Of a stretch of DNA of 64,000 nucleotides, positions 11,945 to 33,844 are shown piece by piece (position 1 is the first letter of the stretch; every line of letters begins with the position of its first letter). The notes beneath the pieces were generated by a model. It worked only from the letters and a program-made list of their open reading frames with translations, was not told the DNA's origin and made no database searches. Location of the stretch: positions 6,016,001-6,080,000 of the forward strand of contig OZ240241.1 in assembly GCA_965198115.1 (NCBI GenBank), read 5' to 3'. The stretch is from Candidatus Latescibacterota bacterium. Its GTDB lineage: Bacteria > Latescibacterota > UBA2968. Both the position numbers and the translations under genes were made by a program.

Positions 11945-13846
11945 ATGTTTCGTTTCCGAAAACTGTTCCTCCTCACGTTCCTCGTCTGTCTTGTTTCCGT
12001 CTACGTCACGATCGATTCGAGGTTGGTGACGGGGGCGGACGCCTTCGCCGACGTCGACGAGGCTATCGAGAACTTCCACGACGTGTTCAACCAGATCTCG
12101 TCGTCTTACTTCAAAGAAGTCGAGGTGGGGGAGCTCAGCGACGCAGCCATTCAGGGCATGCTCGAGGAACTGGATCCGAACACGCAGTATTACGATCAGC
12201 AGGGGAGGGATGAGCTGCGCGAGAAGATGCGCGGCAAGTTCGGTGGTCTGGGCATCAGCATCAGCAAAAAGTACGGTCCTGTGCCCGTGGTGATGAGCAT
12301 CTTCGGCGGCACTCCCGCCGATACCGCGGGTCTCGAAATGGGCGATCGCATCGTAATGATCGAGGGGGACTCGACACACGGCGACGAACTCGAGGAGGTC
12401 GTCGGTCTTCTACGCGGGAACCCGGGGACAGGGGTCACGATCACGATCGAACGCCCCGGTTCGGCGGAAACGTTCGATCAGCAGATCATTCGCGATCGTA
12501 TCAAGATCCCGAGTGTGGGTCTCAGTCGTGAGATCGAACCCGGGATCGGTTTCGTGTCGATGTCGGGCACGCTCAACAGCCACTTTGCCGAAGGCACGGC
12601 CGACGAACTGGGCGAGGCACTGCGGAGCCTGAAAGCCGAGGATCTTGATGGATTGATCGTCGATCTGCGCAGCAATCCGGGCGGGTTGCTGATCCAGGCG
12701 ATCGCTGTGGCCGATCACTTCCTCCCGCCGAATCAGAGGGTGGTCTCCACGAGAGGGCGTGAAGGGAACCAGAACGAGACCTACCGAACGCGAAAACCCG
12801 CCGTCGCGGGACACGTACCTCTGATCATACTCGTCAACGGAAGCAGTGCGAGCGCGTCGGAGATCGTGGCCGGTGCCGTCCAGGATTCCGATCGGGGGCT
12901 AATCCTGGGGTTGGACACTTTCGGCAAAGGGTCCGTCCAGACAGTGCGTCAAATCGGACGCAGCAAGGCCCTGAAACTGACGACCGCCGTTTACTACACG
13001 CCGAGTGGGCGGAGCATTCACCGGTCGGTCGATCGGGGTCGACGCGGGGGCAGGCTCCTGCTCTACCTGACGGACGCGGCCCGGGTGCCTGTCTACGAGG
13101 CCGTCGCCATCATCGGCCAGGCCGAGGATCACGACAACGCCGTCAACGAGCTGATGCAGCGGTACAGCTTGAGCACGGAAGAAGCCGAAAAGCTGATCCA
13201 GACCGATCTGTCCTCGTTCGTCGGTCTGGGACGTGGGGACGACGGGAACACACCGAAAGGAAGCGACCCCAAGAAGATTTTCAAGACATCGGGCGGTCGA
13301 ACCATCTATGGGGGCGGTGGTATCACACCCGATGTCGAGGTTGAACACCGACGTCATAAACGGATCGTCGTCGAGTATATCCGGAACTATTTATTCTTCG
13401 ACTTCGCCGTGGATTATCTGACGCGGAACAGCGTTCCGGAGTCGGTCGGAGACTTCCACGTGTCGGACGCTATCGTCGATGAATTCAAGACGTTCCTCTC
13501 GGATACGACGCAGACGCACGGGTACGAATACAAAGCCATCCCCGAGTTTCGAATGCTGGACCTTAAGAAGGCATTCGGGGACTCGGTCGAGCTGTTGGAG
13601 GAAACGAAGAGGGCGTTCGACGGGTTGGAGACCGCTGCCAGGGCAAAACGCGAGTCGGAATTCGAAGCAGCGAGAGAGGATCTCCGTCGGTTGATCGAAG
13701 AGAGCATCGCCGCCGCGGCCTGGGGGGAACGAGCAAAACAGCTGGTCAGTCTGCGCTACGATCCGCAGTTCGAGGAGGCGCTGCGCATTTTGCGGGATGG
13801 GAGGCTCTATCAGAGGAAGCTTGCGCTGGCGGATCCAGACGAATAG
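11945..13846 (+). CDS. Carboxy-terminal processing protease (S41A, CtpA/Prc family)
   Basis: PDZ GKFGGLGI, VDLRSNPGGLL, SASASEIVAGA, TFGKGSVQ, YYTPSGRSI, GGGGITPD. Confidence 0.95.
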   Translation: MFRFRKLFLLTFLVCLVSVYVTIDSRLVTGADAFADVDEAIENFHDVFNQISSSYFKEVEVGELSDAAIQGMLEELDPNTQYYDQQGRDELREKMRGKFGGLGISISKKYGPVPVVMSIFGGTPADTAGLEMGDRIVMIEGDSTHGDELEEVVGLLRGNPGTGVTITIERPGSAETFDQQIIRDRIKIPSVGLSREIEPGIGFVSMSGTLNSHFAEGTADELGEALRSLKAEDLDGLIVDLRSNPGGLLIQAIAVADHFLPPNQRVVSTRGREGNQNETYRTRKPAVAGHVPLIILVNGSSASASEIVAGAVQDSDRGLILGLDTFGKGSVQTVRQIGRSKALKLTTAVYYTPSGRSIHRSVDRGRRGGRLLLYLTDAARVPVYEAVAIIGQAEDHDNAVNELMQRYSLSTEEAEKLIQTDLSSFVGLGRGDDGNTPKGSDPKKIFKTSGGRTIYGGGGITPDVEVEHRRHKRIVVEYIRNYLFFDFAVDYLTRNSVPESVGDFHVSDAIVDEFKTFLSDTTQTHGYEYKAIPEFRMLDLKKAFGDSVELLEETKRAFDGLETAARAKRESEFEAAREDLRRLIEESIAAAAWGERAKQLVSLRYDPQFEEALRILRDGRLYQRKLALADPDE

Positions 13847-13922: not shown

Positions 13923-16757
13923 CTACTTAGCATCCAGGTTGTGGACGGCATCCCACGCTTCGTCGGGGGGTATGGCCTTGAATTCGTTACAACGTTCGAC
14001 GAAGATCTTGGCTGGGTCCGTCTTCGGCGTCGATCTTCAGACCCGCCTGGAAGTGTGCGATCGCCTCGTCCCACTTCCGTTCGCTATACATGTTGAAGCC
14101 GTTGACGTAGGCGTCGACGACATCCAGCTTGTCTCGCGACACCTCTCCTTTTCGCCCGAGGACTTCGTAAACACGGACGGGTTCATCTTTCCCGACGACG
14201 CGAATACTGTCGAGGGGTCGAACCTCCATGATATCGCCCGCTGCCCGATAGGTGAACTCGGAGATCATGGTCGTGATACCGTAGGCCTTGCCCGCGCCCT
14301 CGAGTCGTGAGGCCAGGTTGACGGCGTCGCCCATGACCGTGTAGTCCACACGGGAGTGCGATCCGAGATTGCCGACGACCATCTCACCCGTGTTCACGCC
14401 CATCCTGACACGCAGGAATTCCCCGCGTCCCTGTTCCGCCCACATCTGCCTCAGCTCGGTCATGCGGTTCTCTTCCTCGAACTTGCGACGGAGGTCCGCG
14501 CACTTCTGTTGCATGTCGATGCAGGCGAACACGGCGGCTTGAGCGTGATCGTGCATGATCATCGGTGCGCCCCAAAAGGCCATGATCGCGTCGCCTTCGA
14601 ACTTGTCGATCGTGCCCTCGTGGATGGCGATGATCTCGCACATCTCCGTCAGATACTCGTTGAGGAGCTCGACGAGCTCGACAGCCGTCAAGTTTTCCGA
14701 GATTGTCGAAAAACTGGCAAGGTCGGAAAAGAAGACCGTCATCACACGCTGATCGCCGCCGAGCTGGTTCACGAGATCCGGGTTCTCGACGAGCTGATCG
14801 ACGACCTTGGGGTCGAGGTAGTGCCCGAACGCACCCTGGACAAACTCCTTTTCCTTCTCTTTCTGCACGTAATCATACAGGGTGATCGTCAGATATCCGA
14901 TCGTCAGCGTCGCGACGGGGCCGAGCATGTCCGCCCAGATCCCCGCCTGAACGAACAGAAGGATCACCCCGATGATGTATGCCGAAAGGATGCTCACCAC
15001 GACAGCCGCTCCAGACAGAGCTTTGAACCTGGGAACGAGGACGCCGATCAGGACACCCAGTACGAGCATGACCACCATATTCTGCCAGACCGTCAAGCGG
15101 CGCAGAAAATTCTGCGTCAAGATCGTGTTGAAGACGTTGACGTGCGCCCCGAGCATGGCTTCCCGTGCCCCGAACGGCGTCGGATTCAGGTCGTGTGTTC
15201 CAGTCGCCGTCAGCCCGTAGAAGAAGATCGTGCCATCGAACTCATCGGCGCTCAGGATCCGGTCCGAGGACTGTTCGCCGTGAAGACCACCCGTGATGAT
15301 ACGGTCGAGAAAGAACAGTGGATGATCGTGCGGCTGCACGCCTCCCGACCGCACGAGTGTACGGATGATCCCTACGCCGAGGTCGATTTCTTCCAGCCGG
15401 GAGACGCTCATCCTGCCTGCCACCTCTTCGAGCGAGAGGTCGGGGTTCTCGGTGAGCACGTCGACGATTCCCAGGTTGTTCTTGATCCGGTTGAAATAGG
15501 GAGCGAGAATCTCGGCGATCGGGGCGATTTCCTCCGCCGGAACACCCATCATCTCGATGAAACCTTCCACAGAGAGCGACCGATCGGCGCGCAAGACCTC
15601 TTCCATTCCGGCGCAGTCGATGACGATGTTCCGATATTCGAGCAACAGGTCCGCGGGGAGGTCGACACCGGCCTCGCTGGCCCTGGCCAGGAAGGCATCA
15701 TCGTCGCCGAATGTGTCGGGTGTCTCTATAAGAGCCCGTTTGGCGAATTTGAGGGCGCGATTCTGAGGTTCCGTCTCTGCAAAATCCATGATCAGGTTGT
15801 AGGGGAAGTGACGATACGTTCCGTTGAATGAGCCCGCCCAGTTCACGAGTAGCTCGCATTGTCCGGAAACGGGAATGCGCAGATCGGCGACGCGTCCATC
15901 TGGAAACCTGACAGACGGCAGCACGATTCGCCCAGGTTGAAATCGAACCTGGTCGAGAGGGACGTTGAGGTAGTCGCACGCCATGGCTAGGCCGAGTGAA
16001 AAATAGACCCGGCCGTCGTAATAGATGGCCATTCGGTAGTGCCGGACGACGCCGTCGTGATCGGGTTTGGGAAGCGCGAAACCGACACCGCGGGAAGATT
16101 CGATGTAGGGAGGATGGGCACATCGATGTCCGTTGCGACGAAGAGCTGCCCACCCACTTCTCTCGCTCTGGGTACGGAGAACCGAGATAACCCTTCGACC
16201 GCCCGGTCTTTGCCCGGAGACCTCTCGCGCTGATTCTGTTCGGCGAACTCGACTGTCTTGCCTTCGGCGATTTCGAATGTCTGCGACAGATAGACGATTC
16301 CGGTCTTGTTGGCGACGTCGACGAAGTCCCGGTCGTGATCCTGCACCAGGTCGAGAACGGCCGATCGCGTGAAGCCTTCGTCCCCAAGGTCGGCAACGGC
16401 GTCCGGCGACAGACGCTCCCCGGCCGGCTCGTAGAAGAACATATCGAAGCCGACCATCCGGGCGCCGTAGGTGTGAATCGTCTCGACCATGCGAGCGTGA
16501 AGATCCCGCGTGAACGGAAACCCGTGTGTCTGGTAGGCCAGATCATCGATGTCGATCGTGGCGACCGACGGGAGCTGGAAGGGTTCTCCGAACCAGTCGT
16601 TACGCTTCCGGAAGCGGAAGTCGTAGCTGCTCGACTCGAGATCCTGGTAGAAATTGGTCATCGAGATCAGGGCGATCACGATCGCCGCGGCGATACCGAG
16701 AAAGAGCTCGATTGAAAAACCGGACTCTGACTTTACCTGTTTCTCTTCGTCGGGCAT
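13923..16757 (-). CDS. CHASE2-domain class III adenylate/guanylate cyclase; two apparent frameshifts (~16108 and ~14011)
   Basis: N-part has a TM and CHASE2 motifs (IDIDD, FPFTRDLHA, VGFDMFF); the continuation has PDHDGVVR, 3 TMs and cyclase motifs FFSDLASFSTISE, IDKFEGDAIMAFWGAP, YTVMGDAVNLASRLE; the natural C-terminus KIFVERC...WDAVHNLDAK* is in a shifted frame ending at 13923. Confidence 0.9.
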
Positions 16758-16913
16758 TGGGTGTCCTCGCTGGGGTGAGCGACATCCGGAAACGACGCCC
16801 CAGAATATAAACTGCGATAGGAGGGTGGCGCAAAACGCTGTTACGTCCAAACATAGAAAGGCGATGCCGGATCGTGTCCGACATCGCCTATGGGGAGTTG
16901 ATGTATCGCCAGG

Positions 16914-17303
16914 CTACTCGATGCCCGTCAGCTCTCCGGCCGCCTGCTCGGCGAATGGGGAATCTCCGTGGTTCTCGACGAGGTCGCTGTAGACTTTCTT
17001 GGCCTCTTCGAGTTCTCCGAGCTGGACGTGACACTGGGCGACGAAGAATTTCTGCTCGGGCACGGCCTCTCCGTTCGGATCGGCTTCGATCGAAGATGTC
17101 AGCTGCGTGATCGCATTCTTCAGGTCGACGCGGCTGGGATATCGCACGCCGCCCTTGTAATAGAGCTGGTCGAGCACGGCATCTTCGGCCTCGGCTCCAC
17201 GCACACCGGCCACGGTGCGTGTCTGCTGCGTCTCGTAGGCCTGCTTTTTGGTGACTTTCTGGATCGCCTTGAGTGGGTGAAACCTGCCAGGTCCACCCGT
17301 CAC
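16914..17303 (-). CDS. Small TPR (YbgF/CpoB-like C-terminus) protein; N-terminus uncertain
   Basis: DPNGEAVPEQKFFVAQCHVQLGELEEAKKVYSDLVENHGDSPFAEQA TPR pair; TVAGVRG motif; no clear signal peptide in frame. Confidence 0.65.
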   Translation of the reverse strand: MTGGPGRFHPLKAIQKVTKKQAYETQQTRTVAGVRGAEAEDAVLDQLYYKGGVRYPSRVDLKNAITQLTSSIEADPNGEAVPEQKFFVAQCHVQLGELEEAKKVYSDLVENHGDSPFAEQAAGELTGIE

Positions 17304-17456
17304 CTGTTATGAAAATACGGCAAATCGGGGTGGGAGCACGTGATTCAGGACACGCCAGAGAAGAATTTCATGACCCGTTTAACATGTTGTTTTAAACAGG
17401 GATACATAATTTGTGCGGTTGAAAAAGTGCGTGGCGTCACACCGGGAACGAACTTT

Positions 17457-20400
17457 CTAATCTAGAAATTCGAGCTGTCCCTGCAAGGAAGGCTCGAGCT
17501 CAACGGCGCGACGATACGACGCTTTAGCCTGTGCCGCATCGCCCTGCAGATGTCGGAGAATCGCGAGGTTCAGATGGAATCCGGCATTTTGGAGCTGGCG
17601 TTCGAGGGCCCGTTCGAACGATTCCGCCGCACCGGGATAGTCGCGTTGGTGGATCAGCACGACGCCTTTGCCGTTGAGGGCATCGGCATTCCCCGGGTTG
17701 AGGGAGATGGCGCGATCGAACGCCTCGGTCGCACGATCGTAGCGTTTGAGACGAAGGAAAGCGGCTCCGTCATCGTAGGCCTTGTCAGAAGCGATGCGCT
17801 GCAACGGCCCGACGGATCCGGTCGTTGACGCGGTCACGGAGATCTCCGACAACGGTCGCCCGCCGGTGATCACGTCGAGCTGTCCTTCGTAGGACGCGTC
17901 GTAGGCCACAGCCTTCTTGTAGGCGGCGATCGCCTCGTCCTTCTTGCCCTGGAGGTGATACGTGATCGCCAGGTTAGCCTGATAGCCAGCGTTGTTGGGA
18001 TCGATGGCGATGGCCTTCCGATAGGCGTCGATGGCCTCGGTATACTGATGCTTGCGGGTGGCGATGACGCCCTTGCCATTGAGCGCGTCGGCATTCTCAG
18101 GATTCAACGAAAGCGCTCTGTCGAATTGCTCGGTTGCGCGATCGTCCCGTTTAAGCCTCAGGTAGGCGGCGCCGTCGTCATAGGACTTTTCGGATGCGAT
18201 GCGCTGGAGCGGGTCGACTTTTGTGGGCCGGGTCGATACGGCGCCCGTGAGGAAATCGAGGGTACCCGCAAAGTCCCGATTGATCCGGACCGCCTCCTGA
18301 TAGACCTGTTGCGCGTCGTCGCCTCTGCCCTGGAGGTGGTAGGTGAGCGCGAGGTTGATCCTGAAGCCAGCGTCATTCGGGTTGAGCTCGAGCGCCTTGT
18401 TGTAAAGCTCGAGCGCCTCGTCGTAGCGCCGCCGCTTGGTCATGACGACGCCCAATGCGTTGTAGGCGTCGGCCAGACCCGCGTCCATCTTGATCGCGTC
18501 GGTGAAGGACGTTTCCGCCCGCTCGAGCTGGTTCAGTCGCAGATAGGCTGCACCGGCATCGTAGAGTCCCTCGGCACTGTCGAGGGAGACGCCGGAGACG
18601 AGCGCGATCCGGTCCAGACGCGTCTCGAAATACGCCAGGTCGCGGTTGAAGAGAGCTCTTCGATCGAGGCTTGGGACGGAATGGCGATGTCTGAGTCGGG
18701 GACGACACCCGGGCGAAACGTCTGCTGGGCCTCGGAGACGAGAATTTCGTTGATGAAGCCGCGTTCTTTCCGCACGTAGTACTCTTCGGCCCCGTTCCGC
18801 CACGCGTCGGAGAATGACGATCCGAATAGCGTCGTTTCCACGGGCAACCAGATGCGGTTGTCCCACAGGACGTATTCACGCTCGTTCAGGAAGTAGTCGC
18901 CGGCATCCTGAACAGAGATGCCACTGTCGAACATCATGTAGATGTGGCCGTATTGCGGGTCGTTGACGTCCAGGATGGCGGTCGGGATGTTCAGATTCTC
19001 GAGCATCGAGCAAAACAGCGCAGTGCAGTCGTCGCAGTCACCGATCTTCACGTCGAGGTATTCGTAGGGGTACTTAACGGAGTCGAAAACAGAATCGTCC
19101 TGGAAGATTTCGAGATACGGTGTGGTCTGATCCTGCTGATAGCGGAGACCGTGTGCGCCGATGGCGTCGAAGATGAGGGCGGCCTTCCCAATGTTGTTGT
19201 TCCCGAATTTTTCCCGGAGCAGGTCGGCATAATTCCCGACGAGGCCCCGAGCGAACGCGTCGACGGTTCTGCTTTCGGGCGTGATAAAGGCGGCGATGCG
19301 GCGCGGGTTGGACCAGCTGAGCTTGCCCTTCCCGAGGACGTAGACGCTGTTGAGCGTGCGGGTCGACGTCTTGTTCGCTCTGCCCTGACGGTAGCTCACC
19401 TTGACCGTCGGCTGTACGAGATTGTCGTAGTAGGACGGTTGCGTCGACAGCAGGTCCTGTGGGAACGTCAACGTGAAGCCGTATCGTTCTGTCGATTGAG
19501 CCGGGAGAACGACCGTCTCTTCGTGGGGGGTCTTGGTCAACGTCGGGACATCGATGCTGACGGTCACCGGCAGGGCGTTGGCGGACGCGTTCCGCAGGAC
19601 GACGTCGACGAAGTCGGCCTCCTCATAGGTTCGGTAGAGAGACTTGAAAATAGGTGCAGGCCGCACGATGGCGTCTTTGATGTTGACGATCGACGCGTTG
19701 TAGGAAAGGCCTAGAGTGACGTGGTGCGTCGGGGGCAGGACAGGGTGATGCTCGAACGCATAGTCGAGTTGCGCCGAATTCCACTTGAGGCCGAAGCCGA
19801 GGGCAAAAGCCAGTGTCTGATCCGCCCCCGTTGGCGGACTGAGTGGTCGATTGACGCCGCCCCGCAACAGGAGGGCGGCCAGCGGCTGGTATTCGGCACC
19901 GAAGTGGAAATCATCGCTGTCGACGTCGAGGGCGAGTTTCACATCGGGGTGTGGCTGGACGGATACACCGCCCCGGATGGTCTGTTCGAGCAGCTCTTCT
20001 TCGAATTGCGTGGTGTCATCCTGGAGTTTGGTTCCGCCGATGTCCTGTAGGGCGACCCCGAACCGCAGTTTATCGAAGGGCGGTTTTTTTGGAGTGAAAA
20101 CGAGACCGACGTCAAGACCGAATCCGCTGGCGTTGCGCAGGCTCACGTCGTCGAGTTCGATCGTCTGGAACACGCTCTTAAGTCCGACTCCGAGGGAGAA
20201 GCTGCGGTGGAGCTGCATCCCGTAGGTCAGGTTGACCACGTTGAGGGCATCGCTGAGTTCGGTGTCCCCGAAACTTTCGCGAACCCAGCCAAGACCGATG
20301 GCGTGACGCTCGAACAGCGGGAAAACGTAGGACGCATAGGAGCTGTTGATGTCGAGACCGAACCGGTCGGCATAGGAGAAAACGACTTCCTGACGTTGGA

Positions 20401-20587
20401 GGGTCGGAAGCCCTGAGGGATTCCAGAAAGTGGCCGAGGCGTCGTCAGCCAACCCCGTCACGGTGCCTCCGAGACCAATCGTGCGGGCAGTCGTGGCGAA
20501 AGTGGGTCGCTGGGCCTAGCTGTTACCGGCCAGAGCCACGACGCAGACCGATACGAGAACGGTCAGCCTGGTGAGGGTGTGTGGCAT
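17457..20587 (-). CDS. PorV/PorQ-like beta-barrel + transglutaminase-like domain + TPR array; in-frame TAG at 20518-20516 and frameshift ~18652
   Basis: ATG 20587 gives a signal peptide, then ARTIGLGG...ADDASATFWNPSGL (PorV/FadL-like plug motif) and alternating beta-strands ending HHVTLGLSY; GDCDDC...GHIYMMFD Cys/His/Asp core; TPRs continue after a 2-nt insertion (EELFNRDLAYF). Confidence 0.8.
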
Positions 20588-21492
20588 CAGGGCGTATCGT
20601 TCCGGTAGAGGATGCTGGCCTCGAACGACGGGAACTGGCTGTTCACGAGATAGATGTCGAGGTCGCCATCGCCATCGAAGTCGCCGACAGCCGCGTCGAT
20701 ACCGTAGGATCCTCCGATCGACAGACCAGCGGCGGCCGTCTCATCCGTGAAGGTTCCCGATGTCTGAAGCAGAATCTGGCTGACTTGCCCGGCACTGGAG
20801 TTGGCGCCGTTGACGAGCAGGACATCGAAGTCGTTGTCTCCGTCGAAATCCGCCCAGGCGCTTGCCCATCCGATCCACGTGGTCGCTGTCCCGGCCAGGT
20901 CGCCTGTCGCGACATTCGTGAATACATCATCACCGTCGTTCCGGTAGAGGGCGTTGCCGCCGACGTTGACGACCGCCAGGTCGAGGTCACTGTCTCCGTC
21001 GTAGTCGACCCACCGGGCGGCGTGTCCGATGTCGGTGTTGTCGATGGAAGCTTCGCACGCGACCTCTGTGAAACGGCCTGTACCATCGTTCTTGTAGAGT
21101 GCGTTGCTCTGCTCGCGATTGACGACGTAGAGATCGAGGTCTCCGTCACCGTCGTAATCGCCCCACGCGGCGTCTTCGCTGTCCCCGAGATGATCGACGG
21201 CGGCGGAGAACCCGACCTCGGAAAAAGTGCCGTTCCCGTTGTTGCGATACAACCGGTTGACGCTGGCGTTCGCGTTCGCAGCCCAATTGGTGACGTAGAG
21301 ATCAAGGTCGCCGTCGCCGTCGTAGTCGCCCCACGTGGCGCTCGTAGCGACGCGGGAAGCGTTGGGCATCGAATTGGCGACACCCGCACTGCTCGTCACG
21401 TCGGTGAATTGCATCTGGGCACATACCGGTTTTGCCCAGAGCAGGAAAATCGACGTGGCGGCAGCGAGACAGGTTTTGGGTAGATGGGTCAT
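20587..21492 (-). CDS. Secreted FG-GAP/VCBS repeat beta-propeller protein
   Basis: Signal peptide; five to six (W/V)GD(Y/F)DGDGDLDLY repeats; stop overlaps the next start (TGATG). Confidence 0.9.
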   Translation of the reverse strand: MTHLPKTCLAAATSIFLLWAKPVCAQMQFTDVTSSAGVANSMPNASRVATSATWGDYDGDGDLDLYVTNWAANANASVNRLYRNNGNGTFSEVGFSAAVDHLGDSEDAAWGDYDGDGDLDLYVVNREQSNALYKNDGTGRFTEVACEASIDNTDIGHAARWVDYDGDSDLDLAVVNVGGNALYRNDGDDVFTNVATGDLAGTATTWIGWASAWADFDGDNDFDVLLVNGANSSAGQVSQILLQTSGTFTDETAAAGLSIGGSYGIDAAVGDFDGDGDLDIYLVNSQFPSFEASILYRNDTP

Positions 21493-21503
21493 GGAGTTCG
21501 TTT

Positions 21504-24500
21504 CTACCGATTCACGACAGCTACGGTTTTTTGGGTCTGCTCGCCGTTGGCATTAATGACAACGATGTAGAGACCGCTTCTGACGATTTCATTGCGATGA
21601 TCACGACCATCCCAGGTCAGGAGATTGCGCCCTGCATTCATTTGACGACCTGGCTCGAGGACGCGTTGTAAACGTCCCCCGCGGTCGTAGATCTCGACAC
21701 GCACGGTGGCGGTCGCACCCAGATCGAAAGAGAGATCCGTGGTGGTGACGAGTGAGGGTATGGCGATCCGAGGACGTCCCGGTCCCGGTGGAGCCAAGCG
21801 GCGACCAGCGGGAGAGAAGGCCCGGTTGGAGAACTCGATATTTGAAATGGAGCCTGTCCCACCGGCTCCTGATCCGCCGATGAAGAGGCCATAGGTGCCG
21901 AAGTCGGAGATGGAAACCCGGACGACCTGCTGTTCGATCGTGCCTCCGACACGCGTCCATTCGCCCCCCACAAGCCGGAAGATGGCAAGTTGGTCGGATG
22001 TCGTAGCCCCGGGTATGACGATACTGAACGTGGCGGGCTTTCGAAGTTCGATGACCGGTTCGGATGTGATTACGTAGGCCAGGGCCGATGTTTCCGTCGC
22101 CTCGGACGGTGCCGAGTCGATGAAAACGGTCTCGATCTGCACGTCGGGATTCTGGGATAACGTATCGGGCAAGACATTGGGCGAGAGTTCGAGCGTGGCT
22201 GCGCCATCGCTGCTCTGCACGAGGCCGCCCTGACCCCGCGCGATCAGAGCGGGTATGACGGACTCGAAGGGGTTCATCGTGTTCCCCTTCAGGTCGATCG
22301 CCCCCTCCACGCGCACGATGACCGTACCACCCGGTGTCTGCTCCGTGATTTCCACTTCACCGATCCAGAGTCCCCCGCTGTAACTGATCTGTTCGAAAGG
22401 AAGGGGATCATCGATGCCCGTGAGTTGGAGTGTGACCGTGGGGCTGACGGTGTTGTCCATCCCGGCCGGTTCATCTGAGAAGTTGAGTACCACACTGGCT
22501 CTGCGACCTGTTGCCAGCACACGCGGTCTTACCTGAACGCTGTCTACGACCGGTTCAACGGTGTCGACGAGGAAAGACTGTTCGACGCTCCAGGCGGACG
22601 CAAGGAAGCCGAGGTCGACGCTGCGGATCGCCCAGAAATAGGTGCCGGTTTCGAGGTTGATCAGCTGTAGGGATGATCCTCGAACATCGCCAAACCCCGT
22701 GGGACCTGCACCGGACCGAATTTCATTGCCGTCCGGTGTAGACCCGACTCGCACCTGATAGCTCAATGCACCGTCGGCCGTCGGGGTGGTTCCCCGATCG
22801 GTCGCCGGCAACCAACCGAGGGTCACGGCAGATCCCACACTGGCAGCAGTCAGGCCATCCGGAGCCTCGGGGTTGCGGTTCGGGTTGAATCGGGCTTCGA
22901 GGTTATCGTTGACGCGGCTGGACGGGACGAAACTGGCCGTCGCCTGCCCCATACTTGCGAGATCCAGGTCGCCGTCCGAATCAATGTCCGCCCAGGACAA
23001 CGACGAGGACGTGACGCCCACGAGAACATCGATCGGCTCCTGGCCGAACAGGCCATTGTCGTTCCTGTATAGCTGAAGTATCTGGCTCCCGTCCACCACA
23101 CCGCTCACGGCCAGGTCGAGGTCCCCGTCGTTGTCGAAATCTGCCCACCCCACTTCACCGGCTGCAAAACCCGTAAGGTTGGCGTCGATGCCTGTCAGCA
23201 AACCGGTCCCAGGATATAGGTCAACGCGCTGCTGCCGGAAGCATCGTCCCTGTTTGTCGTTCCCCGTCCGCCGATTCGCCCGATACGACGAGATCCAGGT
23301 CCCCATCACCGTCTGAATCCCCCCACGCGAGATCGCCCCCGCGTAACCCGGGGAGATCGATGGCAGGATCTTCTGTGACGGACCCCAGCGGTTCGTTCCG
23401 GGCAATGTAGGTGGCCGGTTCGGACGTATTGGTGTGGCCGGTGACGGCGAGGTCAAGGTCTCCATCGTTGTCGACATCGGCCCAGGCAACGGACCCGACG
23501 ACGCGTGTGGCGCTGAAGAATCGGTCCTCGCGCAGAATCCCGGCGGCATTCGTGAACAACTGAAGCGTGGCTTCCCACGTCGCATTCCAGCCGGACAGGA
23601 CGAGATCGAGGTCGCCGTCGTTATCGTAATCCGCCCAGGCCAGATCGCCACCGGATACGGGTGTGAGATCGGCGTTGCCGGTGTCCTGGACGAGGGTTCC
23701 GAGGGGCTCGTTCAGGTAGATCACGGCCTGACGGAATCCGTCTGTTCCATAGCCGGTCGCGGCGAGGTCGAGGTCGCCGTCTCCGTCCAGATCGCCCCAG
23801 GCCAGTCGCCCGCCATACAGGTTGATCAGCCTGTCGGAGTTGGGTTCGTCCAGGACAAGGGTCGAAGGTCCGCCAAGGGGGCTACCGATTCGGCCCGCAT
23901 CGATTCGACCATTGCGGAAGAGAACGGTGCGTGGGTCTCCGCCGGCGGCCGGGAGGCCCAAGGCGATGAGGTCGGGGTCGGCGGTCGTGATGCCCGATGC
24001 GATGAGGTCGAGGTCACCATCGTTGTCGACATCGCCCCAGGCAAGGGCGCTGTAGCGAAGGTTCTCGGCTCGCAGCGCGGGTTGCGCGGCATCTTCGGTG
24101 AAGCTGCCTGCCTGGTTCACGTAGAGGCTGAGCGTACCTACGCCGGACGCCGTCGCACCGGACAGGGCGATGTCGAGATCGCCGTCGCCATCGTAGTCTC
24201 CGAAGGCGGCTTGCCCGAGGTGGATGTTGTCGAAGGTGTCCGTTGTGGCGGAAAGGACCCCGCCCTGGCTGAGATAGAGTTGGGTCAGAGGGCTGCAGGT
24301 GTCGGCCGGTCCAGTGAGCCCGGTGACCAGCAGGTCTGGATCGCCATCGCCGTCGACATCGGCCCAAGATGTGGAGGAGGCCCAGACGCCCGTGAGGGTC
24401 GACGATTGGGTAAAAGTCTGCCCTTCGACCGTGGGGATCGAAGCCGCGATAAGAGTAGCCGCGGCGAGCGCTCGGAAGATGATGGACTTCCCTGCCCGCG

Positions 24501-24522
24501 GACAGGAGATGCGATGACTCAA
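21504..24522 (-). CDS. FG-GAP repeat protein with FN3/Ig domains and FlgD-Ig/T9SS-like C-terminal domain; disrupted at ~23200-23260
   Basis: TTG 24522 with AGAAGGA RBS, signal peptide, WADxDxDGDLDL repeats in ORF 23221-24609, continuing in ORF 21504-23651 with FN3 (TYFWAIRSVD) and EIYDRGGR...WDGRD...SGLYIV...KTVAVV. Confidence 0.85.
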
Positions 24523-24643
24523 GTGGTGTCCTTCTCGTGGCCCGTTGGAGGCTCCAAAACTACCCGTAAAACGCCGGGCAATGTAGTGAGCGGCGGACCG
24601 TAAAGTCAAGCTTTTGAGGCTTTACGAATGTTGGAAGGAACAC

Positions 24644-24681
24644 AAAAGGGCCGTCGGCCCTGATGACCGACGGCCCCCTTT
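24644..24681 (-). terminator. Intrinsic terminator after the giant surface protein
   Basis: GGGCCGTCGG...CCGACGGCCC stem followed by a T-tract on the minus strand. Confidence 0.75.
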
Positions 24682-24702
24682 CCTGCAATGCTGCCCGTGA
24701 AC

Positions 24703-27700
24703 CTATTTGAGCAGCAACATCTTGTGGACCTGCGAGTAGGTCTGGGTCTCGCTGGTCGCGTGGACGCGGTAGAGATACACGCCGCTGGCCACACCCCGTC
24801 CGAACCGGTCCTTGCCGTTCCATCGCAGGGCGTAAAACCCGGGGACGTGCCGCTCGTCGGCGAGCGTGATGATTTCCTGTCCGAGGATGTTGTAGACGAT
24901 CAGCGAGAGATCGGCTGCTTCGGGAACCGCATAGCGAATCGTCGTCTCGGGGTTGAACGGGTTGGGGAAGTTGTGCTCGAGCGCAAAGTCCTCGGGTAAC
25001 AACGACAGACGCGCACCGATGTTTTCGGCGGCGCTGACGACGAGGCTTCCATCGATGATGAGACCTTCAACGATGTTCAGAAGATCGCCTTGCGGATGGT
25101 CCTCAGTCAGGATGAACCGGACCCGCGCGAAGGTCCCCTCGGCTGCCGTTACGGCATCGCCCATCGTCACGGCCCCGGCGATAAAGACCTCTTCGGCCTC
25201 GGCGTCGTGGTCGAGCACACCGAAGGCTTCGGCCTCACGTCCGTCGATCAACAACAGGCCGTCGGGCTGATACGCCTCGACAAACTTCAAGGACGCGGGA
25301 TCGTAGTCCAGGGTAATCCCCATCCCCTTCAGGTCCCGGGCGTTCTGGACGGTAATGTCGACCACCCACTCCCCACCCGATTCGCTGCTGACCGGGCGAC
25401 CGACGAGTTCGATCCGCGTGGTCGTGTCGATGCTGTAGGCCGCGATGACCGCCGACTTGGATGCGGCGGCGTCGGGTTGCACGTAGGTCAGGTTGAACCG
25501 GTTTACCATCTGGACGAAGTCGGTGAAGTTGACCAAACCGTCGTTGTTGAAATCACCTCCATCGATGAAGTTCGCATCGCCGCTCGCCGAGTTGAAGGCT
25601 CCGACGAGCGATACGAAGTCGGTGAAGTTGACGGCAAAATCGCCGTTGATGTCACCTATATACGGTGGCTCTTCGAGGTCGACGGCAAAAGATCCCGTCA
25701 GGAATTCGCTGTCGAACGTCCCATCGCTCGCCTTGATCCGGTAGTGATAGGTCGTGCCGTCGTCGAGCGTGCGGTCTACGGTCCACGCCGTGATGGCGCG
25801 GCTGTCGGTCGAGCCGAGACCCGCACCCTCGGCCAGGCCCGATTCGACGGTAATCGCATCCGTGAACTCGGATGTCGTCGAAATCTGGAAAGTGTAGGTG
25901 AGATCGGCGCCGGGGTTGAGGTCGGACGCCGAGCTATTGTTGACGACGAACGTCGGCGAGGCCGGATCGCCCTGTTTGACGAACAGAGACGGCACCGACG
26001 GTCCCCCATCGGCGGCGGGTGTGACGGATCCCGTCGCGTCGGACGGATCGCTCTGTGTCTGCTGCAGGCCCAGTGCCCGGATGCGATAGTCGTAGTTCGT
26101 GCCGTTGACGACGTTGTTGTCGATGTAGGTGGTGATGTTCTCGAGCGTCGCGATGGGCGAGAAGTCCCCGCTTCCTTCGGATCGCTCGATGACATTCCCG
26201 GTGAGGCCGCCCGATGTGCTTTCCGTCCAGGTCAATGCAACAACGTTGTTTCCGGCCGTTGCGGCCAACGCAGTCGGGGGAACCACGGTCGGCGATTCAC
26301 CCTCTGCGAGGGTCGTGAAAGTGAGCAGGCTGCCCGAAGCCGGCCCGTTCCCGGACCGGTCGATGGATTCAACCTGGTAGGAATACTCGGTGCTCGCCGT
26401 GAGATTCGTGAGGGTGACGGAGTGGTCGGTCACGTCTTACGCGTCGCCCGAATTGAAGTCCAAACTGCCGCTCAGCCCGAACTGAACCGAGCTGTCGGAC
26501 AGCTCGTTCGTACTCCAGGTGACGACGGCCTCGTTGTCGGAAGCGACGACCGAAACGCTGCTGATTTCGGGTTGTAGGATGTCGGGTTCGGACTCGGTCG
26601 TGAACTCGAGAATCGAGCTCGTCGCCGGGCCGTTGTTGCTCTGATCGATCGACGCGACCTGGTAGAAGTAGGGCGTTCCCGCGTCGAGGTTGGTGAGGGT
26701 CAGGCTATGGGTGGTGTTGAAGTCTTCTTCAGTGACGATCTCAGTCAGGTTGTCGGACGCCGTGCCGAATGAGATTTCGGCGTCGGCTGCCTCGCTCGTC
26801 ACCCAGCTGATCGTCGCCTGACGATCGTTGAGGTAGATGACCGATGGGTTGGTGGAAATGACCGGTGCTGTGAGATCTTCGGAAGCAGGTGTCGATCCGA
26901 ACACGACCGCACTCTTGGTCGCGCCGTTGCCTGACGCGTCCGTCGATCCAACCTGGTAGGCAAAGGTCGATCCTGCCGCGAGTTTTGTGAGCACCAAACG
27001 GTGCGTGGTCTCGTTCGTTCCCGAAACTTCCTGGCCATCAAGGGTGGATTCGTCTGTCCCAAAATCAACCGTGCTGTTTGCACTCTCGTCCGTTTCCCAC
27101 TCGACTGTGAGACTCGACGAGGTGCTGGCGACGACGGTCGGGCCACCCGTGATAACCGGGAATTGCGTGTCTTCCTCGGTCGAGGTCGTAAAGCTTCCGA
27201 ACCCACCGGGGACCTGCTTCTTCGTCGTTGTCGGGTCGATGCCCAGAACCGTGTTTCCGGCTGCGTCGGTCGAACTGACCTGGAACAGGTAGTCGAGTCC
27301 AGGTGCGAGTCCGGTGACCGTTACAGAATGGCCACGTACAAGCTCGTTGTCCTCGAAAACGATCTTCGAGGCGTCCCCAAAGATGGGTGCGCTCTCGATT
27401 GACGCGTCGGGAGAACCCGGCAGGACACCGACGGCCACGCTGGAGGTCGACAGCTTGTCCGTGCGCCAGTGGAAGATGACGAAGTCGTCGCCGATCTCTG
27501 CGAGCGGACCTTCCAGGATGATCGGCGGGTTCGTGTCCTCGGACAATCGCGTAGTGAAAGTGTGATCGTTGCTGAGACCTAGTACCGCCGCATTCGCGTC
27601 GGTCGTGACGATGTTCCCCGCGGCATCCGCGGATCCGACGGCATAATGGTATTCCGTGCCGGGCACCAGATCGGTGATGGTCTGGGAATGGAATCGTGCT

Positions 27701-30700
27701 CCCTCGGCTGTTTCGAAGAAGTTGTCGTAGTCGATCGTCAGACCGTAAGAGAGCCGTGTGTCGGCCGGCACGTCGGTCAACCACTCGATGGTCGCCGAGG
27801 TTGCCTGGAGATTGACGACGCGGGGTCCACGTGTGATGGTCGGTGGCGTGTCGTCTTCGATGAGAGGTGTCGTGAACGACAGCCCCTCCGTGATGCTTTC
27901 GTTTCCTTCCGTATCGACCGTCGTCACTTCATACGTGTATGTGGTACCTGCAATCAATCCCGCCAGTCTCAGGGCGTGCCGTCTTTCGACGCTCAGGTCT
28001 TCGACGGACTCTTCGTCCTCGCTTCCCTGTTTGGCCGCTGCTTCGGGCCGGAAGGTGATGATGGCGCTGTGAATCTCGTTGGCGCCCCACGTAATCGTCG
28101 CCCCGTTGGGAGTGACACCGATCGCGACGGGTCGCGAGAATACGACGGGAGCCACTGTGTCGGGCGCGCCGAGGGTGGCGAACGAAAGCTCGCCAAGGTT
28201 ATAGGTTGGGCCATTTCCGGCCAGGTCGGTGACGGCGAGTTGGTTGGTCAGTCGGATTTCGTGACGCCGTGCCGGTGCGGTGGTCGTGATCGACTCACCC
28301 TGGATTCCAGTCGTGTCTCCCAACACACTCGTCGTCGAGTCGTATTGGACCGTAACGGTCGCCGGCTCGTTCGTTTGGAGCACGATGAGGGCCTCAGTAT
28401 TGCTCCGGCGAGGCACGACGGGCGGCCTCACGATTCTGGCATCGACCGTGTCTTCATCGGCCGTTGTCCTGAAGGCGAACATCTCGCTCAGTATTTCATT
28501 GCCTGATGCATCGACTGACCGGACCTGATACGCATAGGCCGTGTCGGCCAGCAAGTTGGACAGCGCGAGACGGTGCTCGTTCACAAGATCGTCCACGACG
28601 AGGCTGTCCGTCAGGTCGGCGGAAACCTGTTTGGCAACGCCGCCGACGGCCGATCCTAGCGCATAGAAGATCGCGCTGCTGCTTGGTTTGGTGGTGATCC
28701 ACCGGACGGCGGCCGCATTGAAGCCCGTGGCGATTGCCGGCCGTCCGACGATGCGGGGTCGCTGCGTATCGACGGTGGTACGCAGCTGGAATCGCCGTGG
28801 TTGCGGAGTTTCGAATGTGTTACCGAGTGCGTCCGTCAAACTGAGCGAGAAAAAGTAGGGCTGGCCGGTCGTGAGCCCAGACAGTCGCAATTCGTGGATT
28901 TTGGACTCTTCGGTACTGCTGACTGTCTCTGTCAGGGCGGCCTGGTCCGTACCGAATGACACAACGGCGTTCGAGGTTTCATCCGTCTCAAGGACGATGG
29001 TCACGCCGTCGGTCGTGATACCGACGGCTGCGGGACCCCTCACGATGCGTGGCGGCCGCGTATCGGCCATCCTGCGCGTGACGAGGATGAGCGGTCTGTT
29101 CGGGAACGGTTCGGATTCACGCCCCTGGGAGTCGATGGCAGTCACTTGATAGAAATAGCGGGTTCCGGGTGAGAGACCCGTGAGCTCGACCCGATGACGC
29201 CTACCCGTCGTGGTTTCGGTGGCGGTCAGGTCGAGGTTGTTGGGATCGGTACCGGCCATCACGCTGCCTGTACCGTCTCGGTTCGTCCCCCACTGGATGA
29301 TGGCGGATTCGTTCGTGACGCGGAGTGGAACGACCGGGTCGGATACGACCGGGGCATCGCTGACATTGGAGCCGAGCGTGAGCGTGATGTTCGGCTCGAT
29401 GGTGGTTGGCGTTTCGGCGACGTAGGTCACCTGCGAGAAGGTGATCTGCGTTCCGCGAAATTCGGGTCGTGTGCGGAGACGGAGAAGACCGAGCGGAACG
29501 TTGCCGCTCACCGGCACGGACGACGTCGCCCTGACCGAGATCGAGTTGCCCTCGACGCTGATGAGGGACGGCGCGACACCACCGGGTGGTTCGATGTTCA
29601 GGACGGCGTTGGGTGTACCTTCGACGCCCGACGGAGGAAACGCAAGGCTTTCGACCGTGAGGGAGAGGCCGTTGAAGTTAGGGGCCAGTTCGATGAGCAG
29701 CGTGCCCGCTCGTGAGGGATCGGCTCCCGCGCTCACGGGAGAGAGGCTCCCGATGTCGAACGAAATGAGATCTCCGACGACCATGGGCTCGGAGAGCTTG
29801 ATTGTGAACGAACCGGTTGCGGAGGTGATGTTTTGGAACCGCACTCGGATCACTCATTCGGATCTGCGCCTGTACACCGAGGCCGCCTTCGAAGTTGGAC
29901 CCGAAGATCTCGACAGCGACGGTGGATCCCCCTTCGGCGATGACGGACAGCGACTGTGGAACGAGCGCGTTGTTGCCGGTACCGTTCTGAATATCGACGT
30001 CGCCATTCGCGAACGAGGAAGGGCTGGTGGGGGGTAAACCGCTCCCCGATGACGTCTGTACCCCACCCGTGGGTTCTATGTTGAGCACGGCGTTCGGCGC
30101 GCCTTCGACACCCGAAACCGAGAAAACGAGGGATTCGACGGTGAGAGACAGTCCATTGAAGTCGGGGGCGAGCTCGAGAATCAGAGTACCCGCCCGAGAC
30201 GGATCTGAACCGGCGTTAACACCGGTCAGGCTGCCGATGTCGAACGAGATGAGATCTCCGTCGATCATCGGCTCGGAGAGTTTGATCGTGAAGGAACCCG
30301 TGGCGGAGGTGACGGATTGGACCGCACTGGGGTCACTCATTCGGACTTCGACTTCAACCCCGAGGGCGCCTTCGAAGTTCAATCCGTAGACCTCGACGGC
30401 TACCGTCGATCCGCCGTCGGCGTGACCGAAAGCGCAGACGTATCGGGGCTGCCGTCACCCGATCCGACCTGGATGTCGAACGCTCCGTTGGCGAACGAAG
30501 ACGGCTGCGCGGTCGGCAGACCGCCTCCGTCACCTCCACCGTCGGCCCCGGGCACGGCGGCCACGAAGGGCGGCGCAGGAATAAATTCCGTCCCTTGGGG
30601 CGCGATGTCGTTCAGATCCACCTCAACCCGAACTCCGAAGCTCGTTACGTCAACCAGATTGCCGGCGAACATCTGGATGGGGATCGGGCCTCCCGGGTTC

Positions 30701-31309
30701 GCACGACTCCGATTTCGGTTTTGATTACCCGGATCCCTGTTCAGGTCGGCTGCGAACGTTTTGGGTATGGCACTCTGGTTCGCAGCTCCGAGTTCGATGT
30801 TGGGTTGCAACGTGGTCGTCCCGACAGAGACTTCCGAGGCCGTCAATTGCAGCGTGGTGAAGGTGGCCGACAGCGTAAACGTGAGTCTGCCGATGAACTG
30901 AAGCCCATCGCCGTCGTCGGCAGGGGCGAAAATACTGATCCAGTTGGCCCTGAGTTCGCTCCCATCGATCGATGCCGGCAACGTTTGTGGGAAGAAGGAC
31001 CCCCCCCGCCGTGACGATGCTCGAAGCGACGATGGCGCTGGGATCGCTGAGCTGAAAGACTACCTCGACGCCGTTCTGACCGGCGAAATCGGAGGCGAAG
31101 ACTTCGATGACTATCGTTTCACCTGGTAGGGCGATCACATCGCGTGTGTCCGTCAGGGCCTGATCGCCCGTGTCGACGGCAATGTCGATTCCGACCTGTT
31201 GCGCGTCGGCTGTACCCGGGCCAAGGGCCCAGAGGGAGAGGGCCACCGTGATGACGGCCAGCCCAATCCGGCTGATGTCGCAGAGGCTAAGCGTCCTCAC
31301 TCGACTCAT
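24703..31309 (-). CDS. Giant (~2200 aa) secreted protein: Ig/cohesin-like N-terminal repeats, ~10 FN3-like repeats, dockerin-like pair, cohesin-like domain, T9SS type-A-like CTD; broken by frameshifts (~30990, ~30420, ~29836) and an in-frame TAA (26439-26437)
   Basis: ATG 31309 with GGAGGA RBS and signal peptide; ORFs 30725-31426, 30400-30981, 29678-30382, 26437-29853 and 24703-26433 join; repeats HxxxLxxLxxGTxYxYQVxSxDxxGN; GDINGDFAVNFTDF / GDFNNDGLVNFTDF; LEHNFPNPFNPETTIRY...ASGVYLY...KMLLLK. Confidence 0.87.
29580..30525 (-). repeat. Intragenic tandem duplication (~480 bp unit)
   Basis: Two near-identical copies of RMSDPSAVQxxTSATGSFTIKLSEPMxxGDLISFDIGSL...AGxDPSRAGTLxxELAPxFNGLSLTVESL...GVEGxPNAVLNIEP, also recognisable at DNA level. 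Confidence 0.85.
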
Positions 31310-32591: not shown

Positions 32592-32592
32592 G

Positions 32593-33789: not shown

Positions 33790-33844
33790 CATGACGCTTT
33801 GTCACAGCCCTAACCTTTTGCAGATTCAGCAGATGGAGCGCATT

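What the first reader, a model, noticed from the sequence alone, without database searches (positions are those of the whole stretch)
13923..31309. Candidate trans-envelope sensing/attachment system: T9SS-type cargo + PorV-transglutaminase-TPR fusion + TPR adaptor + CHASE2 adenylate cyclase
Seen: six co-oriented genes, one pair coupled by a TGATG overlap. They encode a giant CTD-bearing surface protein, two FG-GAP propellers, an outer-membrane barrel fused to a Cys-His-Asp domain and TPRs, a small TPR protein and an inner-membrane CHASE2 cyclase. Established: PorV shuttles T9SS cargo in Bacteroidota, and in Sinorhizobium meliloti the TPR/beta-barrel protein NsrA signals to a CHASE2 adenylate cyclase (CyaK). 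Inference: this is one module linking secreted adhesins through the barrel and periplasmic TPRs to cAMP synthesis, i.e. surface-contact sensing built from T9SS-like parts outside Bacteroidota. I know no description of this combination.
Basis: partly seen in the sequence, partly recalled or inferred. Interest (0 to 1): 0.8.

Follow-up and report, generated by a model that had tools for sequence, protein, structure and literature searches.

The report
Secretion barrel protease feeds cAMP sensor
These six genes, all damaged in this genome but intact in relatives, include a four-gene unit kept together in several uncultured bacterial groups (a surface protein, an outer-membrane barrel fused to a predicted periplasmic cysteine protease, a small exported protein with a conserved AGVRG peptide, and a membrane sensor predicted to make cAMP) that likely relays an outside signal across the cell envelope and offers a testable guess at what CHASE2 sensors detect.

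Summary
The six co-oriented genes and the TGATG overlap are real, but all six are broken or truncated here, and sequencing contigs carry the same lesions. Relatives hold intact copies. The conserved unit is four genes, not six: cargo with a ZU5-like+CTD tail, PorV-family barrel-Ig-transglutaminase-like(Cys-His-Glu)-TPR, small exported TPR protein with a TVAGVRG motif, and CHASE2 cyclase. The giant adhesin is lineage-specific (11 of 39 loci). In 121 genomes enzyme, small protein and cyclase occur all together in 43, none in 74, split in 4. A marine clade keeps the four genes in another order. One lineage that lost the cyclase also changed the catalytic His to Arg and AGVRG to AGVPP, yet kept barrel and cargo. 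FecR proteins beside proteobacterial CHASE2 receptors carry G-[VI]-R-G too (5 of 6). Best model (0.5): a dedicated T9SS shuttle whose periplasmic protease processes the AGVRG protein, which switches the cyclase. No interface could be modelled. Searches found no paper on it; this scan noted the module three times before on other DNA.

The parts
24703..31309 (-). Giant FN3/dockerin surface protein with type A CTD (about 2050 aa in G001); broken here; accessory, not part of the conserved unit
   Evidence: Pfam and NCBIfam; intact 2059-aa frame in L021; lesions; present in 11 of 39 loci
21504..24609 (-). Cargo: FG-GAP repeat protein ending in a ZU5-like domain plus FlgD_ig-type CTD (PRAFSP...KTVAVVNR); frameshifted, about 1.1 kb deleted
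   Evidence: such a cargo in 61 of 65 genome loci and 35 of 35 marine loci
21504..22316 (-). ZU5-like + CTD tail, the predicted barrel-specific sorting signal
   Evidence: alignment of 53 tails; FlgD_ig 17 of 17, ZU5 5 of 17 (1 over cut-off), CHU_C 11 of 17 all under cut-off; only 2 such tails in G000, each beside one of its 2 barrel-enzyme genes
20587..21492 (-). Second FG-GAP protein, signal peptide, no CTD; shortened in frame; accessory
   Evidence: 62 of 71 genome loci, absent from the marine clade; stop overlaps next start as TGATG
17457..20587 (-). PorV-family 14-strand barrel + Ig-like + transglutaminase-like domain + TPRs; TAG at 20516-20518 and frameshift near 18656
   Evidence: NF033709 107.9 bits; model pLDDT 88.7 of intact P0001; Z 30.1, rmsd 2.7, 270 aligned to 6h3i_F and Z 31.0 to FadL homologue 3dwo
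18686..19339 (-). Transglutaminase-like domain; Cys 19034-19036 (GDCDD), His 18944-18946, Glu 18836-18838
   Evidence: profile match; invariant residues; fold Z 10.5 to 3kd4 (rmsd 3.1, 136 aligned) and Z 9.2 to LapG 4fgo (rmsd 3.5, 143 aligned); codons read
16914..17306 (-). Small TPR protein; start and signal peptide deleted here, present in relatives
   Evidence: 60 of 67 genome loci, 29 of 30 marine loci
17196..17216 (-). TVAGVRG motif, predicted substrate of the enzyme and signal for CHASE2
   Evidence: Ala and Arg invariant in 46 of 46; pattern occurs once in 7.1 million six-frame residues of G000, here; AGVPP in G080/G087
13923..16757 (-). Inner-membrane CHASE2 class III adenylate cyclase (1 TM, about 520-aa periplasmic region, further TMs, cyclase); two frameshifts
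   Evidence: Pfam; TM scan and catalytic motifs; 51 of 58 genome loci, 23 of 24 marine loci

Best explanation
In the intact relatives this is likely an outside-in signalling device built on a dedicated type IX secretion shuttle: the barrel is predicted to hold its own ZU5+CTD surface protein outside, its fused periplasmic cysteine enzyme likely cuts the small exported protein at the AGVRG motif, and the processed motif would switch the CHASE2 cyclase to make cAMP; the copy in this window is a damaged relic with lesions in all six genes. Shown: gene content, lesions, co-occurrence, folds, conserved residues, one correlated loss. Inferred: (1) barrel-cargo pairing, from 1:1 gene pairing and the PorP/SprF precedent; (2) periplasmic location of Ig-enzyme-TPR, because it follows the last strand of an even-stranded barrel; (3) proteolysis rather than acyl transfer, from the LapG-like fold; (4) the small protein as substrate; (5) the motif as CHASE2 signal; (6) the trigger, probably a change in cargo occupancy or load on contact. 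The sign (activation or relief of inhibition) is not known; I favour activation by the freed AGVRG end.
For: Adjacency (six-frame counts where the flank is long enough): small protein 60 of 67, cyclase 51 of 58, cargo 61 of 65 genome loci; the same 7 loci lack both small protein and cyclase. Marine clade (a member of the P0246 cluster is named Ca. Neomarinimicrobiota), 55 of the 80 loci examined: order secretin, cyclase, cargo, barrel, small protein; 29 of 30, 23 of 24, 35 of 35. Genome-wide: enzyme 47, small protein 45, cognate CHASE2 45 of 121; all three 43, none 74; in 41 close genomes barrel-enzyme and cyclase are in the same 11 while SprA is in all 41. Correlated loss: G080 and G087 lack the cyclase in the locus and at E 1e-40 genome-wide, have GRIY for GHIY and AGVPP for AGVRG, keep barrel, cargo and FG-GAP gene, and sit inside the cyclase-linked clade on a long stem (0.35, support 100, quick tree). 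Cargo pairing: 2 ZU5+CTD tails in G000, each beside one of 2 barrel-enzyme genes, against 18 hits of the type A profile; 5 of 5 further barrel-type paralogues have such a cargo, 6 of 6 non-barrel enzyme loci do not. The Ig-enzyme-TPR cassette also follows other input-like domains: barrel in 36 of 147 representatives; Reg_prop in 8, NHL-type propellers in 4, ankyrin in 1, STAND NTPase in 1 of 30 scanned. Cyclase residues kept: GD.VN..R in 51 of 51 full-length copies, D-K-F/Y-x-G-D in 54 of 59. FecR proteins beside CHASE2 receptors in named proteobacteria carry G-[VI]-R-G in 5 of 6 loci (background 0.06 per 1000 aa).
Against: The cyclase is unlinked in 4 genomes: G042 and G048 keep it beside a PP2C phosphatase and Ser/Thr kinase and no small protein was found; G126 and G127 have all three parts but apart, with no ZU5+CTD cargo seen beside the enzyme gene. 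The correlated loss is a single event (two sister genomes). Loci were collected with motifs of this family, and kin are not independent. Ten barrel-enzyme paralogues form a separate clade with no small protein or cyclase next to them except L146, which has a small protein, so the enzyme can be kept without them in cis. Four divergent small proteins have AVAARR/TVAARR in place of AGVRG. G-[VI]-R-G lies inside the FecR domain and may be only its structural signature; the six FecR loci are homologous to each other and 1 of 6 lacks it. No activity, cleavage site or expression was measured.
Confidence: 0.5

Rival explanations
1. Same four-gene pathway without cleavage: the small protein is a pseudo-substrate adaptor that is held in, or acylated/cross-linked by, the enzyme's active site and released to CHASE2 when the barrel changes state.
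For: Transglutaminases, acyltransferases and inactive family members share the fold (Z 6-9); all co-occurrence and loss data fit equally; TPRs on both proteins could scaffold.
Against: Cys, His and Glu are invariant in 48 of 48 and His is lost just where the cyclase is lost, which favours catalysis over mere binding; the best characterised structural neighbour, LapG, is a protease (PMC4359373 passages).
Confidence: 0.2
2. LapG-like housekeeping of the cargo: the enzyme trims, releases or anchors the surface protein (or links the barrel to the cell wall, as PorE does for PorP), the small protein inhibits it, and the cyclase is only co-regulated.
For: LapG fold; barrel-enzyme paralogues sit beside cargo without cyclase; PorP-PorE-PG1035 precedent (PMC9143113, abstract).
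Against: G080/G087 keep barrel and cargo with His replaced by Arg; small protein and cyclase are missing from the same 7 loci and stay adjacent to each other in G126 when the barrel gene is elsewhere; many enzyme fusions have no barrel or such cargo.
Confidence: 0.17
3. One reading: all six genes form one contact sensor with the giant adhesin as input and a TPR-TPR relay to the cyclase.
For: All six are syntenic in close relatives wherever the contigs reach and all six are damaged in G000.
Against: Giant gene in 11 of 39 loci and it has an ordinary type A tail (35-53 bits in 16 of 17 such tails against 18-29 for the module's cargo); second FG-GAP gene absent from the marine clade; the best conserved part of the small protein is the motif, not its TPRs.
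Confidence: 0.08
4. An inherited operon of envelope genes with no shared pathway.
For: Kin share gene order; four genomes have the parts unlinked.
Against: Linkage survives reordering in another phylum-level group; joint presence/absence in 117 of 121 genomes; residue-level correlated loss.
Confidence: 0.05

Closest known systems
Sinorhizobium meliloti NsrA - CyaK/CyaD1/CyaD2 - Clr (PMC13001267 and PMC7529298, passages read)
   Same: An outer-membrane beta-barrel protein is needed for an outside protein signal to raise cAMP made by inner-membrane CHASE2 cyclases.
   Different: NsrA's barrel is about 600 aa at the C-terminus (residues 600-1200, S7 Fig legend); here it is a 14-strand N-terminal PorV/FadL-type barrel with its own secreted cargo, a fused cysteine enzyme and a separate AGVRG protein. 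No homology between NsrA and this barrel was tested.
T9SS type B CTD cargo with cognate PorP/SprF shuttle, and PorP-PorE-PG1035 (PMC12618676 abstract, sections 4 and 10; PMC9143113 abstract)
   Same: A cargo gene with an extended C-terminal signal is paired with its own barrel gene; the cargo is thought to stay on the barrel; periplasmic TPR, Ig-like and propeller parts accompany it.
   Different: The barrel scores as PorV/PorQ family; the tail is a ZU5-like domain plus a CTD that does not pass the type B model; the barrel is fused to an enzyme and tied to a cyclase; the hosts are outside Bacteroidota and GldK/GldM were not detected.
Pseudomonas LapA/LapG/LapD (PMC4359373, passages read)
   Same: Periplasmic transglutaminase-fold cysteine protease beside a large surface protein and an inner-membrane nucleotide-signalling protein.
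   Different: LapG is soluble, has C-H-D, cleaves the adhesin and acts inside-out under c-di-GMP; here the enzyme is barrel-tethered, likely C-H-E, and the membrane partner makes rather than reads the messenger.
CHASE2 receptor + FecR-domain protein operons (BiofilmReg, PMC5192318, passages read; loci L247-L252)
   Same: A CHASE2 receptor of unknown input is encoded beside an exported partner; the partner carries G-[VI]-R-G in 5 of 6 loci seen, and two loci add a TPR protein upstream.
   Different: The partner there is a FecR-domain protein, here an unrelated TPR protein; no enzyme-barrel fusion or T9SS cargo there. The passages I read do not mention the motif.

Membership tests
PorV/PorQ family barrel (NF033709) | Profile score over the curated cut-off | tested here: met
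   107.9 bits, cut-off 90
PorV/PorQ family barrel (NF033709) | 14-strand FadL-type fold | tested here: met
   model; Z 31.0 (3dwo) and 30.1 (6h3i_F), tied, rmsd about 3 over about 270 residues; that 6h3i_F is PorV is recalled and named in earlier finding e1-4515662
PorV proper (NF033710) or PorQ (NF033711) | Equivalog cut-off | tested here: not met
   38.6 of 250 and 39.1 of 220 bits; stronger stand-alone family members lie elsewhere in G000
T9SS shuttle | Binds a CTD and docks on SprA | not testable with these tools
Type B CTD (TIGR04131 / PF13585) | Profile match over cut-off | tested here: not met
   CHU_C 12.6-19.2 bits in 11 of 17 tails, cut-off 27; TIGR04131 absent from the window protein's list at E 0.01 and from the best five shown for 25 tails
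Type B CTD (TIGR04131 / PF13585) | Gene linked to a cognate barrel gene | tested here: met
   61 of 65 and 35 of 35 loci; 2 of 2 in G000; usually one FG-GAP gene lies between in Latescibacterota
Type A CTD (TIGR04183), module cargo | Profile match over cut-off 23 | tested here: inconclusive
   18.5-28.5 bits, 15 of 25 over cut-off, against 35-53 for 16 of 17 ordinary tails
Type A CTD (TIGR04183), giant protein | Profile match over cut-off 23 | tested here: met
   28.4 bits, 37.5 for the tail of L041
Complete Bacteroidota-type T9SS | SprA, PorV, PorU-like sortase | tested here: inconclusive
   SprA over cut-off; 8 PorV-family hits over cut-off; PorU-like 1991-aa protein, best stretch 207 bits, under cut-off 420
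Complete Bacteroidota-type T9SS | GldK/PorK ring and GldM/PorM motor | tested here: inconclusive
   no match in G000, but no control genome rang either
Transglutaminase-like superfamily | Fold | tested here: met
   the top rows are this superfamily, Z 10.5 (3kd4), 9.2 (LapG), 8.7 (PNGase); Pfam Transglut_core and DUF553 match paralogues weakly
Transglutaminase-like superfamily | Conserved Cys-His-acid triad | tested here: met
   C102, H132, E168 invariant in 48 of 48; geometry not measured
LapG/BTLCP proteases | Soluble C-H-D protease that cleaves an adhesin and binds LapD | tested here: not met
   fused to a barrel, 14% identity to LapG over the aligned part, third residue likely Glu, membrane partner is a CHASE2 cyclase
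CHASE2 class III adenylate cyclase | CHASE2 and cyclase domains with membrane helices between | tested here: met
   Pfam 119 and 78.5 bits in the intact copy; TM scan
CHASE2 class III adenylate cyclase | Metal-binding Asp pair, adenine-selecting Lys, Asn and Arg | tested here: met
   55 of 59, 54 of 59 and 51 of 51; roles of these residues from established knowledge; the window copy is frameshifted
NsrA-CyaK system | Homology to NsrA | not tested
   no NsrA sequence was on hand; the primary paper was not held

The most novel reading that the evidence does not exclude
CHASE2 receptors in general read one short peptide, A/x-G-[VI]-R-G, which different systems unmask in different ways: from a FecR-domain partner in proteobacteria and, here, by a cysteine protease hard-wired to a type IX secretion shuttle, so that a secretion barrel itself reports to cAMP whether its surface protein is loaded or engaged. 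This would name the long-unknown CHASE2 input and define a receptor class made from a secretion component.
Probability: 0.25. Interest if true: 0.9.

Novelty: new variant of a known kind. Interest (0 to 1): 0.7.

Why it matters
The input of CHASE2 domains is stated to be unknown (PMC5192318, passage read) and the steps between NsrA and CyaK are not given in the passages I read. This module supplies a concrete chain with single residues to mutate (Cys, His, motif Arg) and a seven-residue candidate signal that can be synthesised. It also suggests that type IX secretion parts outside Bacteroidota were rebuilt into receptors, with a third kind of sorting tail (ZU5-like + CTD) paired one-to-one with enzyme-bearing barrels. 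The window's own copy is damaged; work should use an intact relative such as G001 (L021).

Tried and rejected
Foldseek on the whole protein returned only TPR matches; on the enzyme domain nothing under E 0.001. Sequencing-error explanation of the frameshifts: rejected, with the caveat that the runs may be the assembly's source. No RNA holder was listed. Longer fusion forms of the small protein: only 2 TPR-only matches, weak evidence. ESM Atlas: no usable feature hit for the motif; top scores 0.80-0.86 for the enzyme part, leads only. No solved relative of the periplasmic CHASE2 region by sequence. GldK and GldM not found, controls silent. The S41 protease at 11945-13846 is intact, convergent and conserved only in close relatives: not part of the module. 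Weak anti-phage ProA match (16.7 of 1500 bits): dismissed. My gene caller missed the small gene in L055 and L106; six-frame counts replace those for small protein, cyclase and cargo. 25 of the 80 metagenome loci (L213-L237) were not mapped. The careful tree did not finish; the quick tree was used. My recollection that secreted SH3 partners of CHASE2/M48 operons carry a similar motif could not be tested: the plasmid searches gave FecR-type loci only. Literature searches with no description of this module: 0 papers; 1 review by title; 0; listings only; subscription journals and bioRxiv supplements were not searchable, and no supplements were read.
Full report
Observation. The same-genus genome G001 has all six intact (L021), which allowed the breaks to be mapped: every gene in the window is frameshifted, stopped or cut. 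Contigs from runs X1 and X2 match the 17.7 kb with no difference; they are one sample and may be the assembly's source, but they were assembled separately, so the lesions are probably real. Of 254 G001 genes sampled, 213 were found in G000; outside the module 18 of 207 are broken, inside 4 of 6 are broken and 2 truncated. The window therefore shows a decaying copy. Joint decay of one operon is weak evidence of shared function and I do not lean on it.

Who has it. Homologues are named Latescibacterota, Handelsmanbacteria, KSB1 and Zixibacteria by their sources; the window most likely belongs to Latescibacterota (about 90% identity to such records, inference). Of 79 genome loci, those with enough flank hold the small TPR gene in 60 of 67, the cyclase in 51 of 58 and a ZU5+CTD cargo in 61 of 65; the same 7 loci lack small gene and cyclase. 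The second FG-GAP gene is in 62 of 71 and the giant gene in 11 of 39. A marine clade (one cluster member named Ca. Neomarinimicrobiota; 55 of 80 loci mapped) has the order secretin, cyclase, cargo, barrel, small gene and no second FG-GAP gene: 29 of 30, 23 of 24, 35 of 35. The core is thus four genes, kept through a rearrangement. These loci were collected with the enzyme's motifs and are related, so the counts are not independent trials.

Genome-wide presence. In 121 genomes of the phylum the enzyme domain is found in 47, the small protein in 45, the cognate CHASE2 region in 45; 43 have all three and 74 none ('not found' at the thresholds used, with candidates capped per genome). SprA is in 41 of 41 close genomes, the module in 11, so it is an optional addition to a T9SS-like pathway. 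The exceptions are informative. G080 and G087 lack the cyclase; their enzyme has Arg for the invariant His and their small protein has AGVPP for AGVRG, while barrel, cargo and FG-GAP gene are whole. They nest inside the cyclase-linked clade on a long stem (quick tree). It is one event, but it ties catalysis and motif to the cyclase and not to cargo handling. Against the model, G042 and G048 have only paralogue-type barrel-enzyme genes, no small protein, and a cyclase beside a kinase and phosphatase; G126 and G127 have all parts unlinked, small gene and cyclase adjacent in G126 only.

Anatomy. The intact barrel protein folds (pLDDT 88.7) into a 14-strand barrel matching 6h3i_F and FadL (Z 30-31), an Ig-like domain, an enzyme domain and TPRs. 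It passes the PorV/PorQ family cut-off, not those of PorV or PorQ proper. The enzyme domain has the transglutaminase-like fold (Z 10.5 to 3kd4, 9.2 to LapG) with invariant Cys, His and Glu. Following the last barrel strand, it should be periplasmic (established outer-membrane topology, not measured). The same cassette is fused to propeller, ankyrin and STAND inputs in other proteins, as expected of an output enzyme. The cargo's last 270 residues are a conserved ZU5-like domain plus a CTD distinct from ordinary type A tails and short of the type B cut-off. G000 has two such tails, each beside one of its two barrel-enzyme genes; 5 of 5 other barrel paralogues have one and 6 of 6 non-barrel enzyme loci do not. 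This mirrors the cognate pairing of type B cargo and PorP/SprF shuttles (PMC12618676, abstract and sections 4 and 10; PMC9143113, abstract). The small protein has a signal peptide in relatives, TPRs, and a TVAGVRGAEAED stretch whose Ala and Arg are invariant. The cyclase keeps its catalytic residues.

A shared motif. The three best plasmid matches of the cyclase are CHASE2 cyclases beside FecR-domain genes. Those FecR proteins, and two of three more, contain G-[VI]-R-G: Ensifer, Shinella, Paracoccus, S. meliloti Ak57 and Paraburkholderia yes, Ruegeria no. An unrelated TPR protein beside a CHASE2 cyclase carrying the same peptide suggests that CHASE2 reads it. The caution is that the motif lies in the FecR domain itself, the FecR proteins are homologous, and I did not count it in FecR proteins without CHASE2 neighbours. 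That some FecR proteins self-cleave at Gly-Thr is recalled, not from a call.

Mechanism. Most likely (0.5): SprA exports the cargo, its barrel keeps it on the surface, a change in the cargo's state activates the periplasmic enzyme, which cuts the small protein at AGVRG, and the product switches the cyclase. Linkage, folds, residues and the correlated loss are shown; every binding and catalytic step is inferred, and no complex could be modelled. Rivals: uncut adaptor or acyl transfer (0.2), LapG-like cargo housekeeping (0.17), the six-gene version (0.08), mere co-inheritance (0.05).

Known systems and novelty. It works like NsrA-CyaK, a barrel upstream of CHASE2 cyclases (PMC13001267 and PMC7529298, passages; the primary NsrA paper was not held), uses a shuttle logic like PorP/SprF, and an enzyme fold like LapG (PMC4359373, passages); it is a member of none by the tests above. 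SprA beyond Bacteroidota is known (PMC12611786, passages), so T9SS parts in these phyla are not themselves new. Searches found no description of the module, within a library that lacks most subscription papers; no supplements were read. This scan noted the module before on other DNA (e1-9987574, e1-3650527, e1-4515662), and noted sister CHASE2/SH3/M48 operons (not tested here); these are leads, not support. Added here: the decayed state of this copy, the one-to-one ZU5+CTD pairing, the His/motif/cyclase correlated loss and the motif shared with FecR partners. Verdict: real, undescribed as far as searched, a new variant of barrel-to-CHASE2 signalling; interest 0.7.

Noticed in passing
G000:C1:4353936-4370808 (L032, L039, L040): Second barrel-enzyme gene with its own ZU5+CTD cargo (Reg_prop propellers) and an NHL propeller without CTD, downstream of a 1991-aa PorU-like sortase gene; no small protein or cyclase beside it. 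It might feed the same cyclase in trans.
   Followed up: partly
G036:C1:3017715-3054583 (L030, L036, L031): About 37 kb inserted inside the enzyme domain of the barrel gene, with IS3-family transposases near both ends: a second genome in which the module is disrupted.
   Followed up: partly
L158, L181, L206, L210: In the marine clade the module directly follows or is interleaved with a secretin gene (best match PilQ, 179.5 bits, under cut-off 284), which hints at cAMP control of pili.
   Followed up: partly
P0247-P0387; L033, L148, L149, L154, L155, L157: The Ig-enzyme-TPR cassette is a large family (2931 clusters at E 0.001) fused to Reg_prop+Y_Y_Y, NHL, ankyrin, TPR arrays and STAND NTPases; one is named from a spirochaete. 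Undescribed output module as far as my searches go.
   Followed up: partly
L140, L141 (G048, G042): The cognate CHASE2 cyclase sits beside a PP2C phosphatase and a Ser/Thr kinase, without the small protein: possibly rewired to another input.
   Followed up: partly
L147 (G053): Two CHASE2 cyclase genes in tandem behind the module; small protein with TVAARR.
   Followed up: no
L144, L145, L146: Extra copies of the small protein with GGVRG or AGVRG, two of them with no enzyme or cyclase gene in the fetched flanks.
   Followed up: no
G000 whole genome: 8.4 Mb against 5.6 Mb for its genus-mate, about 9% of sampled orthologues broken and several transposase-like frames near C1:4.34 Mb (names recalled): a genome in decay. 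It has 22 cNMP-binding matches and 6 class III cyclase matches.
   Followed up: partly
genera g4 and g7: 0 of 20 and 0 of 14 genomes have the module, though all 28 of them tested for SprA have it: whole-genus losses.
   Followed up: no
window 11945-13846 (+) and 31476-33639 (-): Intact flanking genes: S41 C-terminal protease, GT9 glycosyltransferase and MinD/ParA-like ATPase; 33791-36186 has two ORFs with no NCBIfam match.
   Followed up: no
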